Shown here: positions 1 to 4,666 of the stretch, in pieces
How positions within the stretch are numbered: position 1 is the stretch's first letter
Layout: each line of letters starts with the position of its first letter
Virus record (IMG/VR): IMGVR_UViG_2698536369_000003
Length of the DNA stretch: 4,666 bases
Source of the DNA: a virus
Lineage: Duplodnaviria > Heunggongvirae > Uroviricota > Caudoviricetes
Direction: 5' to 3' (one strand)
Position numbers and translations under genes: made by a program
The notes under the pieces: model-generated
What the model was told of the DNA's origin: nothing
Databases searched by the model: none
The model's input: the letters and a program-made list of their open reading frames with translations, nothing else

Positions 1-390
1 AATCGCACCGAGCGTGGTGTCATGCCAGGAGCCTTCACGGCGGGAATTGAGCGTCCCGCGAAAATCTGCACTCCGGGCGCGGATGGTGACCACATCCGGC
101 GCGCCCCGGTGTTCGATCTCATCAACGGTAAATTTCCCTTTGCATACCAGGGCAAAACCTTTCCAGCCGATATACACCGTCAGGACAGCGCCACGAACCG
201 GCAGCCCGACCTGCCCGTCGGCATCATTCAGTTCAATATCAAGCTGGTCAGCCTCAAAGCCCCGGTTATCCGTCAGGGTCATGCTCATCAGACGGTCGCT
301 GATATTGCCGGTAATATCCCTGCTGTCGAGCATCAGCATATAATCCGGCGTCAGCGTACTGCCTGCATCAAATGTCAGCGCATCCAGCAT
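1..390 (-). CDS. D: Phage tail protein D (P2 gpD-like), N-terminal 130 codons only; the C-terminus lies beyond the window start
   Basis: Not in the ORF track because no stop is reached. Manual minus-strand translation from ATG at 390-388 gives MLDALTFDAGSTLTPDYMLMLDSRDITGNISDRLMSMTLTDNRGFEADQLDIELNDADGQVGLPVRGAVLTVYIGWKGFALVCKGKFTVDEIEHRGAPDVVTIRARSADFRGTLNSRREGSWHDTTLGAI, open to position 1. The start overlaps the U stop (TAATG, plus 388-392). Position directly after U matches the P2 order. G-rich Shine-Dalgarno-like run (GGGGGCGGGAT) precedes the ATG. Confidence 0.82.
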   Translation of the reverse strand, partial: MLDALTFDAGSTLTPDYMLMLDSRDITGNISDRLMSMTLTDNRGFEADQLDIELNDADGQVGLPVRGAVLTVYIGWKGFALVCKGKFTVDEIEHRGAPDVVTIRARSADFRGTLNSRREGSWHDTTLGAI

Positions 391-869
391 TATCCCGCCC
401 CCGTCATACCCGTGAATCTGGTCGCCACACTGCCAGCCTTACCGATGAGCGATTCCGCCTGTTTACCGATATCGCCATAAAGCGCGGCCAGTGATTCATC
501 CACGCGGGTGAGCGACAGCGTAAAATCAATTTTCCGGGGTGTGCCGTCTGCAAAGAAAATACTCCCTGTTTCACTCACCCTGCTGATGACATACATGCCG
601 TAAATCATGCCGGTGCCATCCAGCAACGGCCACGCCCGGCCTTCCTCTGCCATCAGTCTGAGCGTGGTCATCGTCAGCTTTCCGCCAGTCAGTTCGGGAT
701 AAAGCACACCGGCAAGTGTGATGTTCTCCTCACCCACACCGAGAAACTGAAAGGCATCCCGTTTGCCGATACGGGAATTTGACGGCCAGCGATAATCTGA
801 TTCACGCTGCATGGTCTGGTGTGGCAGCGTCTGGCGCATAAAAACAAACATACCTAACGCGAGCATCAT
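390..869 (-). CDS. U: Phage tail protein U (P2 gpU-like), 159 aa
   Basis: ORF of 159 aa, the same length as P2 gpU as I recall it. It sits between the tape measure gene and D as in P2. Strong SD GGAGG (plus 879-883) lies 9 nt upstream of the ATG at 867-869. Confidence 0.85.
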   Translation of the reverse strand: MMLALGMFVFMRQTLPHQTMQRESDYRWPSNSRIGKRDAFQFLGVGEENITLAGVLYPELTGGKLTMTTLRLMAEEGRAWPLLDGTGMIYGMYVISRVSETGSIFFADGTPRKIDFTLSLTRVDESLAALYGDIGKQAESLIGKAGSVATRFTGMTGAG

Positions 870-883: not shown

Positions 884-3322
884 TTAACCGTCATGCATCA
901 TGCTGGCACGGGCGCGCGCACGTTTATCCCGCTCGTATTTTTCGAGCGCATCCTGTAACTGGCGGTCGAGCTGTGTCCCCGGTGCAGTACCACCCGTCAG
1001 GCTGATGTGATATTCGTTTTTACTCTGGTCCACATAAGAGCGGCCAGCCGGTGCCGTGACCGGCTGATAGCCTGCATAAGAGCTGGTCGCCGGAATATAA
1101 CCACCGCTGCCATACGTGGCGGCTTGAGTTCTGGCGGCGGTCTGGTCAAGTGCGTCAGACTCTTTGTTGATGACGCCGAGTTTTTCCAGTACCCAGTCAA
1201 TACCGCTGCGCAGTTTGTTGAACGCATTAAGCGGCAGCATCAGCGCGTCAGCCAGTGCCTGCCCGAACATGACGCCAGTATCACGGCAACGGTTCAGGGT
1301 GTCCTGGGTGGCTTTGACCGGGGCAATCAGGTTTTTAAACCACTGCCACGCGGCCTGTAACTTTTCGCCCAGCCAGTCAAACACCGGTTTCAGTGGCGTG
1401 AACAGCTCCCCCACCGGCGCAAATGCCGCTTTCAGCCCTTCAACCACACCGCCAAAGAATGCGCTGACAGGCTCCCAGTATTTACGGATAAGTAACGCCC
1501 CGGCGACAATTGCAGCCACCACGGCCACAACCGGCCAGCTAATCGCCCCGATGGCGGTCATAACAGCACTGCCAACCGTCGTGAAGACTGCCCCCATTGC
1601 GCCTGCTGCCGCGATGATGGCATTGATGCCGGTGATAACCGGCCAGGCTACGAGGCCAATGGCACCGATGATGCCAATAAGCGCCAGCGCGCCACCGGCA
1701 ATGAGGCCGATGGTTGACGCCAGTGATTTGTTTTTCTGGATCCAGCCGTCGAGTTTTAACACATACTTTGTGGCCGTCTGCGTGAGCTTACGCAGTGTGC
1801 CTTCCTGCTGGTCAAACAGGTCTGTCCCCACCGCCTCATAAGCGGACTGAAACTCCTTAAAGTCACCGCCGAGGTTATCCTGCATGATTTTAACCAGCTC
1901 TTCCGTTTTACCGTCCGAGGCTTTCAGCGTGGCGGTCAGCGTATCCAGTTTTCCGCTTGCTGCCGCTGCCAGTAAAACGTTCGCTGATTTCAGGGCTTCC
2001 TCACCAAAAATGGTTTTAAGGTATTCCCCCTTCTGAGACGTTCCCAGCTTGTGTTTATCAAAGCTGGCCTGAATCTCTTTCAGAATGGTGAACAACGGAC
2101 GCATATTTCCCTTTTTGTCCGAGGTTTTAACGCCAAGCTCTTTGAGTGCATCCCATGCTTTTCCAGTCGGTGCCTGTAATCGGGTGACAACGGCACTGCT
2201 ACCCGTACCCGCCATTGACCCCCTGATGTTATTGTCATGCAGCACACCTGTCATGGCCGCTGCCTGCTCAAGACTTACACCTGCCGTCCTCGCAACCGGC
2301 CCGAGGTAAGTCAGTGCATCACTGAGTCCCTGAAAATCAGCCGCCGACTTATTCATCGTTGCCGACAACACGTCGCCCACATGGCTGACATCATCATTTG
2401 ACAGTTGAAAGGATGCCTTAGTCCCCAGCAACAGTTGCGCGTTTTCTTCCATCGACCGCTGATTCGCCAGCGCCATATTCAGCGTGACCGGCGTTGCCGC
2501 CTGAATAGCCGCAGCATCTCCACCCGCTTTCGCAATGATAATCTGCGCACCGGCCGCATCATCCGCTGAGGCGGCGGTATTGTCACCGAGCTGGCGCGCC
2601 TGCTTGCGTAGTGCAGCCATTTCGGCGGAATCTTTTGCCACACCGAGCACGGCCTGCAATTCTGAGTTTTTCTGCGCAAACTCATAACCGGGCATCAGCA
2701 GCTTAACTCCGGCCATCGTTCCCGCCGCCGCAATCCCCACACCGGCAGCGCCCACCGAGGCCATATTTCCGGCCAGTTCCTTGCCTGCCTGATAACGCTG
2801 TTTGACTGCGTTAAGTTTTGCCTGTTGCGCACTGACACGCGCCAGCGCGTCGCGCTGACGGTTAAGCTGTGCGGTGGTTTCACTGATACGGTTTTTCAGT
2901 CCCTGCTCATCATGTGCAAGATTGCGGGTATTAATTCCCACAACGGCCAGTTCCCGCTGCTGGCGTTTAACGGAATCCGTCAGGCGGTTATATTTCGCCT
3001 GTAAGTCCTCCGCCGCACGCTTTGCGGATTCCAGCACTTTCGCCTGAGCACGGGTCGGACGTTCGGTGTTTTTAAACTGTGTGGCAAGGGCTTCGGCTTC
3101 CTGCCGAGCCTTTTCAAGTGCATGACCAGTCACGGCGAGCTGTGCACTGGTCTTGCGAAATCCCTCAATACGGGATGCCTGACCGTTCAGCTCGCGCAGT
3201 GATTTTTGTGTGTCCCGGATATCCCCCGACAGCGACTTACTCGCTGTACGGATGGATTTAAACGGGCGGGATGCCTGGTCAACAGCCCTGAGCAATACCT
3301 GTAATTTTACATTGTTACTCAT
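884..3322 (-). CDS. T: Phage tail tape measure protein (P2 gpT-like), 812 aa
   Basis: Largest ORF in the window. Residues 1-180 are Gln/Arg/Ala/Leu/Lys-rich and look like a long coiled coil. The centre is Ala/Gly-rich, with a roughly 80-residue hydrophobic Gly/Ala/Ile/Val block at residues 534-612. The C-terminal tail is basic. It lies immediately downstream of the E/E' chaperone pair and its ATG (3320-3322) overlaps the E' stop. Confidence 0.9.
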   Translation of the reverse strand: MSNNVKLQVLLRAVDQASRPFKSIRTASKSLSGDIRDTQKSLRELNGQASRIEGFRKTSAQLAVTGHALEKARQEAEALATQFKNTERPTRAQAKVLESAKRAAEDLQAKYNRLTDSVKRQQRELAVVGINTRNLAHDEQGLKNRISETTAQLNRQRDALARVSAQQAKLNAVKQRYQAGKELAGNMASVGAAGVGIAAAGTMAGVKLLMPGYEFAQKNSELQAVLGVAKDSAEMAALRKQARQLGDNTAASADDAAGAQIIIAKAGGDAAAIQAATPVTLNMALANQRSMEENAQLLLGTKASFQLSNDDVSHVGDVLSATMNKSAADFQGLSDALTYLGPVARTAGVSLEQAAAMTGVLHDNNIRGSMAGTGSSAVVTRLQAPTGKAWDALKELGVKTSDKKGNMRPLFTILKEIQASFDKHKLGTSQKGEYLKTIFGEEALKSANVLLAAAASGKLDTLTATLKASDGKTEELVKIMQDNLGGDFKEFQSAYEAVGTDLFDQQEGTLRKLTQTATKYVLKLDGWIQKNKSLASTIGLIAGGALALIGIIGAIGLVAWPVITGINAIIAAAGAMGAVFTTVGSAVMTAIGAISWPVVAVVAAIVAGALLIRKYWEPVSAFFGGVVEGLKAAFAPVGELFTPLKPVFDWLGEKLQAAWQWFKNLIAPVKATQDTLNRCRDTGVMFGQALADALMLPLNAFNKLRSGIDWVLEKLGVINKESDALDQTAARTQAATYGSGGYIPATSSYAGYQPVTAPAGRSYVDQSKNEYHISLTGGTAPGTQLDRQLQDALEKYERDKRARARASMMHDG

Positions 3323-3742
3323 TCGTGTTTCCGCTTCGCCGGAGCGCCTTTTCGCGCCATGTGATGAGTTCGGTCAGGCTCATGGGGTACAGTTCTGATG
3401 GCGGCCAGTGAAATATCACTGCCACATCCGCCATCAGATCATCGACCGACAGATTTTTCGGAAACGTCACTGCACCGAGTTCGGCGACAAAAAACCGACC
3501 ACCTTACCGGCCAGCGCCACAAGGTCAGGCAGTTCCAGCGCGGCGACTTCCTGCTCGGTCAGCATCGGTGCCGTCATGCGCGGCAGCACCTTAATCAGTG
3601 CATCGACTTCGGAGTTTGCAACCGCAGCCAGACTGACACCGCGCAGCGTCCCGGCATTGGGTTTCATCAGCGTGACCTGTTCGATAACCTGCTCACCACG
3701 TTTGACCGGATTTTCCAGGGTAATGACATTTTCTTTGTTCAT
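3315..3742 (-). CDS. E+E': Tail assembly chaperone E+E' fusion (about 142 aa), made by a programmed -1 ribosomal frameshift at TTTTTTG
   Basis: After a -1 slip at the T6G heptamer the frame reads GTC GCC GAA ... and stays open for 57 codons (VAELGAVTFPKNLSVDDLMADVAVIFHWPPSELYPMSLTELITWREKALRRSGNTNE) to TAA at 3315-3317. That gives about 85 + 57 = 142 aa, the size of the P2 E+E' product as I recall it. The E' stop overlaps the T start (ATGAGTAA). Confidence 0.75.
3394..3438 (-). other. Nested inverted repeat inside the E' extension: 11-bp outer stem enclosing a 6-bp inner palindrome
   Basis: Outer arms tctgatggcgg (3394-3404) and ccgccatcaga (3428-3438) are perfect reverse complements. Inner arms cagtga (3406-3411) and tcactg (3416-3421) flank a 4-nt loop, aata. 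Confidence 0.45.
3467..3742 (-). CDS. E: Tail assembly chaperone E (P2 gpE-like), 91 aa, zero-frame product
   Basis: 91-aa ORF directly upstream of the tape measure gene. It ends GFLSPNSVQ, encoded by GGT TTT TTG TCG CCG AAC TCG GTG CAG TGA, which contains the slippery heptamer. It has a weak SD, consistent with low expression. Confidence 0.85.
   Translation of the reverse strand: MNKENVITLENPVKRGEQVIEQVTLMKPNAGTLRGVSLAAVANSEVDALIKVLPRMTAPMLTEQEVAALELPDLVALAGKVVGFLSPNSVQ
3488..3494 (-). promoter_or_regulatory. Slippery heptamer T-TTT-TTG (minus strand), the -1 programmed frameshift site for E/E'
   Basis: Plus strand 3487-3495 is caaaaaacc, so the minus strand reads GGTTTTTTG in the E frame (Gly83-Phe84-Leu85). 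This is the conserved frameshift motif of tail chaperone genes upstream of tape measure genes. Confidence 0.75.
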
Positions 3743-3770
3743 GGTTTTCTCACTTCTGAATCAGGGTTAA

Positions 3771-3791
3771 CCGGTCAGCCAGGCTGACCGG
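3771..3791 (-). other. GC-rich perfect palindrome / RNA hairpin in the FII-E intergenic region (ccggtcagcc-a-ggctgaccgg)
   Basis: Plus 3771-3780 is the exact reverse complement of 3782-3791. It lies 8 nt downstream of the FII stop (TGA, 3799-3801) on the transcript and 28 nt upstream of the E ATG. What follows it on the minus strand is UUAACCCUGAUUC, which is not U-rich. Confidence 0.5.
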
Positions 3792-3798
3792 ATGAAAA

Positions 3799-4317
3799 TC
3801 ACAGGCCGATATTTCGGCGGTGTTGCTCCAGCCGGTCGACGCCGTTCACCTTCTCAATCATGTTGATGGTGTCGATTTCGACCAGCTCCTTACCGTCCAT
3901 CGTCAGCCGGAAATAGGTGCAGACCACGGAGATTTTCGACTCGGTGTCCTCTCCCTGTTTACCCTCGCCGGTGTCGATTTCTTTCTGACGTCCACGCATG
4001 ACCACTTCGACGGCCACCGTTTCGCCGGTATCGTCGCGCTGGTAAGAGCCTGCAAAACGAATCGGTACGGCATCCACACCGGTTGCGGCGTAAAGCTCCC
4101 AGATAACCGAATCCGGGAAGCCCCCGAGCGACCAATCCATTGACAGCGCATCGTCATCAAGGCCGAGGTCTACCGGTGCGCTGCCGTTCATCCCCGCACC
4201 GCGATAGTTTTCGAGCTTACGGGTCAGTTTTGGCAGCGTGACGGACTTCGCGACGCCCTGATAGCTGTAGCCGTTCAGAAAGACGTTCATTAACTTGAGT
4301 TTGCGCGGCATTGCCAT
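3799..4317 (-). CDS. FII: Major tail tube protein (P2 gpFII-like), 172 aa
   Basis: 172-aa ORF, the P2 FII length as I recall it, between the sheath and E genes. Strong SD AGGAG (plus 4326-4330) lies 8 nt upstream of the ATG at 4315-4317. Confidence 0.88.
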   Translation of the reverse strand: MAMPRKLKLMNVFLNGYSYQGVAKSVTLPKLTRKLENYRGAGMNGSAPVDLGLDDDALSMDWSLGGFPDSVIWELYAATGVDAVPIRFAGSYQRDDTGETVAVEVVMRGRQKEIDTGEGKQGEDTESKISVVCTYFRLTMDGKELVEIDTINMIEKVNGVDRLEQHRRNIGL

Positions 4318-4325
4318 CGGTCAGG

Positions 4326-4330
4326 CTCCT
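4326..4330 (-). promoter_or_regulatory. Shine-Dalgarno AGGAG for FII
   Basis: Plus ctcct at 4326-4330, 8 nt upstream of the FII ATG; it overlaps the FI stop codon. Confidence 0.7.
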
Positions 4331-4666
4331 TAATTGCTGTTAACCGAGGTGACCAGATTTGCCAGGTATTTATCGGTAATACGCTGGCGCAGGGTCAGGT
4401 TTTCAAGAGGAGGCACCGGGGTATAGTCGTAGTCGATATACAGTTTTCCGGCCTTGAGGGTTTCCGCATCGTTGGATTCTTCGCTGAACCAGCAAGTCGC
4501 ATCCACGATATAGCCGTTTGTTTTCAGCTCACGAAATTTGGCATTGATGCCGTCAACGATGTCGCGAATCAGCGTTGCAGTGATGGGCTTGTCCACCGCC
4601 CACATGTGCGCCTCAGCCATCGTGTCGGCCAGCACCTGCGCGGTGCGGGTGTAGTTTTCAAAGAGG
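4330..4666 (-). CDS. FI: Tail sheath protein (P2 gpFI-like), C-terminal fragment of about 111 codons; the N-terminus lies beyond the window end
   Basis: The minus-strand frame is open from the window edge (…[32 protein letters not shown]…VNSN) to TAA at 4330-4332. The ORF-track start at 4635 is an internal GTG, not the true start. Position immediately upstream of FII matches P2. Confidence 0.82.

What the first reader, a model, noticed from the sequence alone, without database searches (positions are those of the whole stretch)
3315..3742. Unannotated programmed -1 frameshift producing the E+E' tail chaperone fusion
The six-frame track shows only the 91-aa E ORF. The sequence contains a T6G slippery heptamer (minus strand GGTTTTTTG, plus 3488-3494) seven codons before the E stop, and the -1 frame is open for exactly 57 more codons, ending in a TAA that overlaps the tape measure ATG. 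This is the conserved recoding arrangement of tail assembly chaperones (lambda G/GT, P2 E/E'). Standard gene callers miss the second product.
Basis: partly seen in the sequence, partly recalled or inferred. Interest (0 to 1): 0.5.

Follow-up and report, generated by a model that had tools for sequence, protein, structure and literature searches.

The report
Phage P2 E/E+E' tail-chaperone frameshift
This is the well-known programmed -1 ribosomal frameshift of bacteriophage P2 that makes two tail-assembly chaperones (E and E+E') from one start codon, here in a near-identical P2-like phage or prophage, so it is real but ordinary.

Summary
On the minus strand, the 91-aa E ORF (3742..3467) holds TTTTTTG at 3494..3488 in the phase T_TTT_TTG. 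The -1 frame then runs 57 codons to TAA (3317..3315), giving a 142-aa fusion. Its ORF overlaps the tape-measure ORF by 8 nt (ATGAGTAA).

The region is 98.1% identical in DNA to bacteriophage P2. The P2 GenBank record annotates gpE, a joined gpE+E' CDS and a "site of -1 translational frameshift" at the homologous base. The conceptual fusion is 140/142 identical to P2 gpE+E' (UniProt O64312, TAPFS_BPP2), and the E' part is 57/57 identical. It matches Pfam PF10109 (E) and PF06528 (E').

In 15 divergent Peduoviridae loci, E' always lies in the -1 frame with an in-phase X_XXY_YYZ heptamer in the overlap; 11 of 15 have TTTTTTG. In 80 close relatives, polymorphism switches to third positions of the E' frame right after the E stop.

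"Unannotated" is only partly true. NCBI's PGAP pipeline and many phage records split E' off as a separate 39-aa "GpE family phage tail protein". Novelty: already known. Interest: low, mainly as an annotation fix.

The parts
3467..3742 (-). Gene E: 91-aa tail assembly chaperone, the zero-frame product
   Evidence: ORF. Pfam PF10109 Phage_TAC_7, 46.5 bits against cut-off 25. 89/91 aa identical to P2 gpE. Homologous CDS annotated gpE in P2.
3488..3494 (-). Slippery heptamer T_TTT_TTG (X_XXY_YYZ phase) where the ribosome shifts -1
   Evidence: Sequence and phase. Same position as the 'site of -1 translational frameshift' in P2 AF063097. Nearest nucleotide differences from P2 are about 150 nt upstream and 38 nt downstream. 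Present in all 80 close IMG/VR relatives. An in-phase heptamer is present in 15/15 divergent Peduoviridae loci, TTTTTTG in 11.
3315..3488 (-). E' segment: 57 codons in the -1 frame (G3488 read twice) plus stop TAA at 3317..3315
   Evidence: Translation. PF06528 Phage_P2_GpE, 78.7 bits. 57/57 aa identical to P2 E', and the 3 nt differences are all synonymous in the -1 frame. Polymorphisms fall mostly on third positions of the E' frame, including upstream of Met104.
3315..3742 (-). E+E' fusion CDS, 142 aa. Proposed annotation: complement(join(3315..3488,3488..3742)), ribosomal_slippage
   Evidence: The P2 protein built the same way (junction ...GFL-VAELG...) is exactly AAD03292.1 / NP_046780.1 / UniProt O64312.
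884..3322 (-). Gene T (tape measure, 812 aa). Its first 8 nt overlap the end of E' (ATGAGTAA)
   Evidence: ORF. Homologous P2 CDS annotated gpT, 'putative tail length determinator'. PGAP names it 'phage tail tape measure protein'.
3799..4317 (-). Gene FII (tail tube, 172 aa), immediately upstream of E. It completes the conserved order tube, chaperone, chaperone extension, tape measure
   Evidence: ORF. Annotations.

Best explanation
The window carries the FII-E-E'-T-U(-D) tail operon of a P2-like (Peduovirus) phage or prophage on its minus strand.

Most ribosomes translating gene E stop at TGA (3469..3467) and make the 91-aa chaperone gpE. A minority slip back one base when tRNA-Phe (UUU, P site) and tRNA-Leu (UUG, A site) sit on T_TTT_TTG (3494..3488), re-pairing on UUU_UUU. 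They then read GUC GCC GAA... in the -1 frame for 57 more codons, making the 142-aa gpE+E' (junction ...VVGFL|VAELGAV...). That product ends at a TAA 8 nt inside gene T.

Both proteins share the N-terminal E domain. Only the minor product carries the E' domain, so the frameshift efficiency fixes their ratio.

By analogy with lambda G/GT, the E domain is inferred to coat the tape-measure protein T, and the E' domain to recruit the tail tube protein FII. Neither protein is expected to stay in the virion.

Shown here: the sequence anatomy, identity with the experimentally characterised P2 site, family membership, conservation and the selection pattern. Taken from the P2 literature: that the fusion is made and that E' is essential. 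Inferred by analogy: the binding partners.
For: 1. Anatomy is exact: an in-phase T_TTT_TTG, a 57-codon -1 extension and a 142-aa fusion.
2. The region is 98.1% nt identical to phage P2. The P2 record AF063097 annotates gpE, a two-piece gpE+E' CDS ('shares amino terminus with gpE; -1 frameshift; essential tail protein') and a frameshift-site feature at the base after the heptamer.
3. The fusion is 140/142 identical to P2 gpE+E' and the E' segment 57/57. The heptamer has about 150 nt upstream and 37 nt downstream identical to P2. The P2 fusion built by the same rule is exactly UniProt O64312, 'Tail assembly protein E''.
4. Pfam gives PF10109 on E and PF06528 on E', both far above their cut-offs.
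5. tblastn of the fusion finds 421 phage records. In 39 of the 40 rows shown the match is two pieces joined; the weakest row (H77) is a single piece covering only the E' part.
6. In 15 divergent loci (31-78% identity; Klebsiella, Yersinia, Salmonella, Burkholderia, Ralstonia, Pseudomonas, Zymomonas, Aeromonas and others), E' is always in the -1 frame. That frame is always open back past an in-phase X_XXY_YYZ: TTTTTTG in 11, TTTTTTC in 2, TTTTTTT in 1 and AAATTTT in 1.
7. In 80 close relatives all keep the heptamer and a 142-aa fusion. Polymorphic sites are 39/41 at E-frame third positions before the heptamer. After the E stop they switch to E'-frame third positions, 5/7 in the stretch upstream of Met104.
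8. Literature: PMC3091744 states that in P2 the -1 shift at TTTTTTG gives the 91-aa E and 142-aa E+E'. [quoted passage not shown] Both cite Christie et al. 2002, J Bacteriol 184:6522.
9. From my own recollection of that paper's abstract (the paper is not held in the library): fusion polypeptides confirmed the shift at about 10% frequency, and complementation showed E' to be essential.
Against: - Nothing in the sequence argues against it.
- No protein-level evidence exists for this particular window.
- No stimulatory RNA structure lies at the usual 5-9 nt downstream. The only strong hairpin starts about 50 nt downstream, so efficiency cannot be predicted from sequence.
- The heptamer alone is not statistically unusual.
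- The proposed roles of the E and E' domains (binding T and FII) rest on analogy with lambda G/GT. They were not tested here and, to my knowledge, have not been shown directly for P2.
Confidence: 0.95

Rival explanations
1. E' is translated on its own as a small protein and no fusion is needed. It would start either at the GTG that overlaps the E stop (GTGA, 3470..3468; 51 aa) by termination-reinitiation, or at ATG Met104 (3434..3432; 39 aa), as PGAP and many phage records annotate it.
For: - Start codons exist in the E' frame.
- The GTG overlaps the E stop in a GTGA arrangement that could in principle support coupling.
- PGAP calls a 39-aa 'GpE family phage tail protein' here, and that exact sequence is recorded on at least 997 contigs.
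Against: - No SD-like sequence precedes any candidate start in the window. PMC3931495 reports the same for P2.
- The GTGA overlap is found only in the window, P2 and one of the 15 divergent loci.
- Met104 is replaced by V, A, I or E in 8 of 15 relatives, with non-start codons (GCC, ATT, ATC, GAG) in 4.
- The ATG lies in the stem of an 11-bp hairpin.
- The E' frame is open back to an in-phase slippery heptamer in 15/15 loci.
- Substitutions show coding periodicity in the E' frame upstream of Met104.
- The P2 record and UniProt curate the fusion.
Confidence: 0.03
2. The frame change happens during transcription. RNA polymerase would stutter on the T6 run and add one U to a fraction of mRNAs, and standard translation of those would give E+E' with junction ...GFFVAELG...
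For: - A one-base insertion in the run gives the same downstream frame.
- Some relatives have longer runs: T7 in L013 and T7G in Smp131.
- A weak hairpin directly precedes the T run (terminator-like scan hit).
Against: - From established knowledge, appreciable transcriptional slippage in E. coli needs runs of about 8-9 or more A/T; six is too short.
- Phase is conserved: X_XXY_YYZ is in the E frame in 15/15 loci. One relative has the non-homopolymeric AAATTTT, which fits tandem tRNA slippage and not polymerase stuttering.
- The literature treats it as ribosomal frameshifting.
Confidence: 0.02
3. The arrangement is a coincidence: a chance T-run and a chance open -1 frame with no second product.
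For: - TTTTTTG alone occurs as often as chance predicts.
- The -1 frame stays open to the T start in about 10% of shuffles.
Against: - Pfam domain in the extension at E=2e-22.
- Conservation of frame, heptamer and phase across 15 divergent and 80 close loci.
- Synonymous-site periodicity in the E' frame.
- Identity with the experimentally characterised P2 site.
Confidence: 0

Closest known systems
Bacteriophage P2 gpE / gpE+E' (GenBank AF063097 / NC_001895; UniProt O64312 TAPFS_BPP2; Christie et al. 2002)
   Same: Same genes, same order (FII-E-E'-T), same TTTTTTG at the same codon, same 91-aa and 142-aa products, and the same 8-nt overlap with T. 98.1% nt identity. E' is 57/57 aa identical.
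   Different: Two conservative substitutions in the E domain (D10E, S29N) and four silent nucleotide changes. This exact 142-aa variant is not recorded as a protein in the collection.
E/E+E' pairs of other Peduoviridae (e.g. Burkholderia KS5/KS14/KL3, Pseudomonas phiCTX, Stenotrophomonas Smp131)
   Same: E' in the -1 frame, an in-phase T-rich slippery heptamer near the 3' end of E, and E' ending at or overlapping the tape-measure start.
   Different: 31-78% protein identity. The distance from heptamer to E stop varies from 2 to 22 codons. Heptamer variants occur: T6C, T7, AAATTTT, and T7G in Smp131.
Phage lambda G / GT tail assembly chaperones (Levin 1993; Xu, Hendrix and Duda 2004, 2013, 2014)
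   Same: Same logic. Two products from one start through a low-frequency -1 frameshift near the end of the gene between the major tail-tube gene and the tape-measure gene. The fixed ratio is needed for tail assembly.
   Different: No sequence similarity: no lambda G or T Pfam family is hit at E<=0.01, and PMC3931495 says the same. From my own knowledge, lambda uses G_GGA_AAG. Lambda has a non-contractile tail and P2 a contractile one. The binding roles of the domains are shown for lambda only.
E. coli dnaX gamma/tau -1 frameshift
   Same: Tandem -1 slippage on an X_XXY_YYZ heptamer in an enterobacterial host.
   Different: From my own knowledge, dnaX has well-defined stimulators: an upstream SD-like element at 10 nt and a downstream hairpin at about 6 nt, with roughly 50% efficiency. 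Here no hairpin lies at the canonical distance. An anti-SD-complementary octamer lies only 2 nt upstream and is not conserved in distant relatives.

Membership tests
P2 gpE / gpE+E' tail assembly chaperone pair | N-terminal part belongs to the E-type chaperone family (Pfam PF10109 Phage_TAC_7) | tested here: met
   46.5 bits against cut-off 25, residues 7-85. 89/91 aa identical to P2 gpE.
P2 gpE / gpE+E' tail assembly chaperone pair | The -1 frame extension belongs to the E' family (Pfam PF06528 Phage_P2_GpE) | tested here: met
   78.7 bits against cut-off 23. 57/57 aa identical to P2 E'.
P2 gpE / gpE+E' tail assembly chaperone pair | In-phase slippery heptamer (T_TTT_TTG) inside the stretch where the E and E' frames are both open | tested here: met
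   Heptamer at 3494..3488 in phase 2 of the E frame. The overlap window is 37 nt. It is at the same position as the P2 frameshift-site feature.
P2 gpE / gpE+E' tail assembly chaperone pair | Gene order: tail tube (FII), E, E', tape measure (T), with E' ending at the T start | tested here: met
   ORFs. Annotation of the homologous P2 and E. coli prophage regions.
P2 gpE / gpE+E' tail assembly chaperone pair | The fusion protein is actually made by frameshifting and is essential for tail assembly | not testable with these tools
   Reported for P2 by Christie et al. 2002, as cited in PMC3091744 and PMC3931495. The primary paper is not held. The frameshift site and its flanks are identical to P2.
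Lambda G/GT-type conserved tail-chaperone frameshift (functional class of Xu, Hendrix and Duda 2004) | Two overlapping ORFs between the major tail gene and the tape-measure gene, related by a -1 shift at a slippery sequence | tested here: met
   The class is described.
Lambda G/GT-type conserved tail-chaperone frameshift (functional class of Xu, Hendrix and Duda 2004) | Sequence membership in the lambda gpG / gpT protein families | tested here: not met
   Only PF10109 and PF06528 are hit at E<=0.01. It works like lambda G/GT but is not a sequence-family member, as the literature also states.
Lambda G/GT-type conserved tail-chaperone frameshift (functional class of Xu, Hendrix and Duda 2004) | Short product coats the tape measure; the extension domain of the long product recruits the tube protein; neither is in the virion | not testable with these tools
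   Shown for lambda (review PMC5009743). Inferred here by analogy.

The most novel reading that the evidence does not exclude
The frameshift itself is textbook. The one thing the evidence leaves open is a strong hairpin inside the E' coding sequence (11-bp perfect stem at 3438..3428 / 3404..3394 plus an inner 6-bp stem).
- It begins about 50 nt downstream of the slip site. The 100 nt that contain it fold with z = -3.4.
- It is kept in P2-, 186- and Yersinia-type relatives with a G.U-compatible change.
- It could be a lineage-specific regulatory RNA element. Possible roles are masking the internal ATG so that no free E' peptide is made, pacing ribosomes, or tuning translation of T.

An anti-SD-complementary octamer 2 nt upstream of the heptamer could similarly modulate shift efficiency. 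Neither has been described, as far as I could find.
Probability: 0.1. Interest if true: 0.3.

Novelty: already known. Interest (0 to 1): 0.07.

Why it matters
Scientifically it adds nothing new. The P2 E/E+E' frameshift has been characterised since 2002, is curated in GenBank and UniProt, and is a standard example of the conserved tail-chaperone frameshift.

Its practical value is for annotation.
- The same locus occurs in about a third of complete E. coli genomes (1695 of 5426).
- There the E' part is routinely annotated as a free-standing 39-aa 'GpE family phage tail protein' and not as a ribosomal-slippage join.
- The correct feature for this window is complement(join(3315..3488,3488..3742)).

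Tried and rejected
- **Primary paper.** I tried to read Christie et al. 2002 by DOI and by PMC135442. Neither is held, so I relied on two papers that restate its findings and on my own recollection, marked as such.
- **NCBIfam.** The scan of the fusion and of E' gave no family at E<=0.01. That was uninformative, and Pfam settled membership.
- **Solved structures.** The sequence search found no relative; the only hit had E=0.98 and is spurious.
- **Downstream stimulatory structure.** Nothing convincing lies within about 10 nt of the heptamer. The strong hairpin is about 50 nt away and is not conserved beyond close relatives, so I rejected it as a classical stimulator.
- **Junction residue.** I tested whether the P2 annotation implies a Phe junction (GFLF...) and not Val. 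Exact look-up shows the deposited protein has GFLVAELG.
- **IMG/VR scan with E.** It returned only relatives at 99% identity or more. These were useful for the polymorphism pattern but not for covariation in the hairpin.
- **First automated frame assignment.** In high-GC relatives it picked the wrong frame. I redid it by alignment score to E and E'.
- **Terminator-like hits.** The hits at 3515-3494 and 3512-3493 are just the slippery T-run after a weak stem inside a coding region.
Full report
**What is in the sequence.**
The minus strand of the window carries a compact run of ORFs:
- the 3' end of a tail sheath gene (4635..4330)
- a 172-aa ORF (4317..3799)
- a 91-aa ORF (3742..3467)
- an 812-aa ORF (3322..884)
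- a 159-aa ORF (869..390)

- TTTTTTG occupies 3494..3488.
- The 91-aa frame reads GGT TTT TTG there, so the heptamer is in the X_XXY_YYZ phase.
- Six sense codons separate TTG from the TGA stop.
- The -1 frame, entered by re-reading G3488, is open for 57 codons to TAA 3317..3315.
- The fusion is 142 aa.

Three details need correction.
- The E' frame does appear in an ORF list, as a 51-aa GTG ORF at 3315..3470.
- The TAA lies 2 nt after the tape-measure ATG and not on it (ATGAGTAA, an 8-nt ORF overlap).
- The -1 frame is open for 62 codons in all, reaching 37 nt back into E.

**Is it more than chance?**
The heptamer alone is not: 1 found against 1.02 expected per window. An open -1 frame from the heptamer to the T start arises in about 10% of shuffles. 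Of all codon positions in the four genes, 4.5% have 57 or more open -1 codons ahead.

The combination is not chance.
- Only 3 in-phase X_XXY_YYZ sites occur in 1234 codons.
- The one in E is the only site followed by a long open frame, and it falls within the 37-nt two-frame overlap.
- The extension encodes a recognised protein domain.

**Identity.**
Megablast of 3200-3900 finds 82 phage records. Of these, 74 are at 95-99% identity, and bacteriophage P2 itself is at 98.1% over the full length.

The P2 record AF063097 annotates FII, E and T. It also carries a two-piece CDS 'gpE+E': shares amino terminus with gpE; -1 frameshift; essential tail protein' and a misc_feature 'site of -1 translational frameshift'. 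That site maps to the base right after the heptamer.

Over the 428-nt E..E' span the window differs from P2 at six bases.
- Two give conservative changes in E (D10E, S29N).
- One is silent in E.
- Three lie in E' and are all silent in the -1 frame.
- The nearest differences to the heptamer are about 150 nt upstream and 38 nt downstream.

The P2 fusion built by my rule (read through G, step back one...GFL|VAELG...) is exactly AAD03292.1 / NP_046780.1 / UniProt O64312 'Tail assembly protein E'' (TAPFS_BPP2). The alternative Phe junction is not on record. Pfam places residues 7-85 in PF10109 (tail assembly chaperone E/41/14) and residues 104-139 in PF06528 (Phage P2 GpE), both well above the gathering scores.

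The whole window matches P2-like prophages in 1695 of 5426 complete E. coli genomes, with a best identity of 97.8%.

**Comparative test.**
tblastn of the fusion finds 421 phage records. In 39 of the 40 rows shown the match is two pieces joined, meaning two reading frames. The weakest row (H77) is a single piece covering only the E' part.

I fetched 15 loci spanning 78% down to 32% identity. They come from Klebsiella, Yersinia, Salmonella, Burkholderia, Ralstonia, Pseudomonas phiCTX, a Zymomonas plasmid-prophage, Citrobacter, Aeromonas, a skin metagenome phage and a phage listed with a Bacillus host. I assigned frames by alignment score to E and E'.

In 15 of 15 loci:
- E' is in the -1 frame relative to E.
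- That frame is open back past an in-phase X_XXY_YYZ heptamer.
- E' ends at or within a few tens of nt of the tape-measure start.

The heptamer is TTTTTTG in 11 loci, TTTTTTC in 2, TTTTTTT in 1 and AAATTTT in 1. The distance from heptamer to E stop varies from 2 to 22 codons. What is conserved is therefore the slip site and the frame relation, not the E terminus.

In 80 IMG/VR loci with E at 99% identity or more (65 distinct haplotypes), all keep the heptamer and a 142-aa fusion. Polymorphic sites behave as follows:
- 39 of 41 are at third positions of the E frame upstream of the heptamer.
- None falls between gene positions 232 and 257, around the slip site.
- After the E stop they switch to third positions of the E' frame: 5 of 7 between the E stop and Met104, and 10 of 17 after it.

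The stretch upstream of the ATG that gene callers use is thus under coding constraint in the E' frame.

**Mechanism.**
The best-supported account is tandem -1 slippage of P-site tRNA-Phe and A-site tRNA-Leu from UUU_UUG to UUU_UUU, followed by decoding of GUC. Most ribosomes would make gpE and a minority gpE+E'.

The literature held in the library states the same for P2.
- TTTTTTG, 91-aa E and 142-aa E+E' from one start (PMC3091744).
- Both cite Christie et al. 2002, which I could not open.
- From my recollection of its abstract, the shift frequency was about 10% and E' was shown to be essential by complementation.

The functional logic is shown for lambda G/GT (PMC5009743) and only inferred here. 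In that model the short product coats the tape measure, the extension of the long product recruits the tube protein, and the ratio is fixed by the shift efficiency.

**Rivals.**
*Independent initiation of E'.* The candidates are the GTG overlapping the E stop and ATG Met104, which is the PGAP model. Several results argue against it.
- No SD-like sequence precedes either start.
- The GTGA overlap is absent from 14 of 15 divergent loci.
- Met104 is replaced in 8 of 15 loci, in 4 of them by codons that are not start codons.
- The -1 frame stays open back to the heptamer in all loci.
- The periodicity data show coding constraint upstream of Met104.

*Transcriptional slippage.* It is disfavoured because six T is too short (established knowledge). 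In addition, phase conservation and the AAATTTT variant fit tRNA slippage. A junction peptide would settle it.

*Chance.* It is excluded by the comparative data.

**Stimulatory elements.**
No convincing structure lies at the canonical 5-9 nt downstream. This agrees with the statement that P2 E+E' lacks such a structure.

The 100 nt downstream do fold unusually well (-39.9 kcal/mol, z = -3.43). This is due to a hairpin with an 11-bp perfect stem at 3438..3428 / 3404..3394. It starts about 50 nt from the slip site and is retained only in the closer relatives (P2, L003-L005). I treat it as a side observation.

An octamer complementary to the 16S 3' end (AGGTGGTC, 3504..3497) lies 2 nt upstream of the heptamer. 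It coincides with the codons for K-V-V and is not kept in distant relatives.

**Verdict.**
The feature is already known, and this is essentially the type example in a 98%-identical relative.

The 'unannotated' claim holds only in one sense. Automated pipelines, and many phage submissions, split E' off as a 39-aa 'GpE family phage tail protein'. That exact 39-aa sequence is on at least 997 contigs, and similar split annotations appear. This window's own 142-aa variant is not deposited.

The correct annotation is complement(join(3315..3488,3488..3742)) with ribosomal slippage. Interest is low.

Noticed in passing
window 3394-3438 (minus strand, inside E'): A strong hairpin lies within the E' coding sequence. 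The arms TCTGATGGCGG / CCGCCATCAGA form an 11-bp perfect stem, with a further inner 6-bp stem (51-nt segment about -26 kcal/mol). The 100 nt after the heptamer fold with z = -3.43. The hairpin starts about 50 nt 3' of the slip site and buries the ATG (Met104) that PGAP uses as the start of the 39-aa ORF. It is kept in P2 and in relatives at 63-78% identity (one A-to-G change gives a G.U pair), but not in more distant Peduoviridae. Its function is unknown, and it may be a by-product of the conserved LMAD...PPSE peptide.
   Followed up: partly
window 3771-3791 (FII-E intergenic spacer, 3743-3798): A perfect 10-nt inverted repeat, CCGGTCAGCC / GGCTGACCGG, with 1 nt between the arms. It sits between the tail tube gene stop and the E start and is not followed by a T-run. 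It could be an mRNA-stabilising or partial-termination element separating the abundant FI/FII products from the low-abundance E/T/U/D products.
   Followed up: no
window 3497-3504 (minus strand): The octamer AGGTGGTC is complementary to the 3' end of 16S rRNA (7 Watson-Crick pairs plus 1 G.U). It lies 2 nt upstream of the slippery heptamer, with 1 match against 0.18 expected per window. It reads AGGTGATC, a perfect match, in three relatives at 63-78% identity, but is absent from distant ones. It might modulate frameshift efficiency or simply reflect the K-V-V/I codons.
   Followed up: partly
L002 1733-1852 (E. coli AMSCJX04 prophage); also L004, L005, L006, L010, L011, L012, L013, L016: There is a systematic annotation split. 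E' is called as a free-standing 37-45-aa protein ('GpE family phage tail protein', 'tail protein', and even 'tail assembly chaperone; P2 E homolog') and not as a ribosomal-slippage join. The window's exact 39-aa version is recorded on at least 997 contigs. Only P2, KS14 and a few other records carry the joined CDS.
   Followed up: yes
L012 (OR820920.1, 'Bacillus phage vB_BpuM-ZY1'): A Peduoviridae genome listed with the Gram-positive host Bacillus pumilus carries a typical proteobacterial-type E/E' cassette (CGGTTTTTTG context, 46% identity to the query). The host assignment looks doubtful.
   Followed up: no
L004 809-1213 (PP537606.1): The tape-measure homologue (P2 T homologue by its own note) is labelled 'tail fiber assembly protein'. 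The 39-aa E' fragment is labelled 'tail assembly chaperone; P2 E homolog'. These appear to be product-name errors in that record.
   Followed up: no
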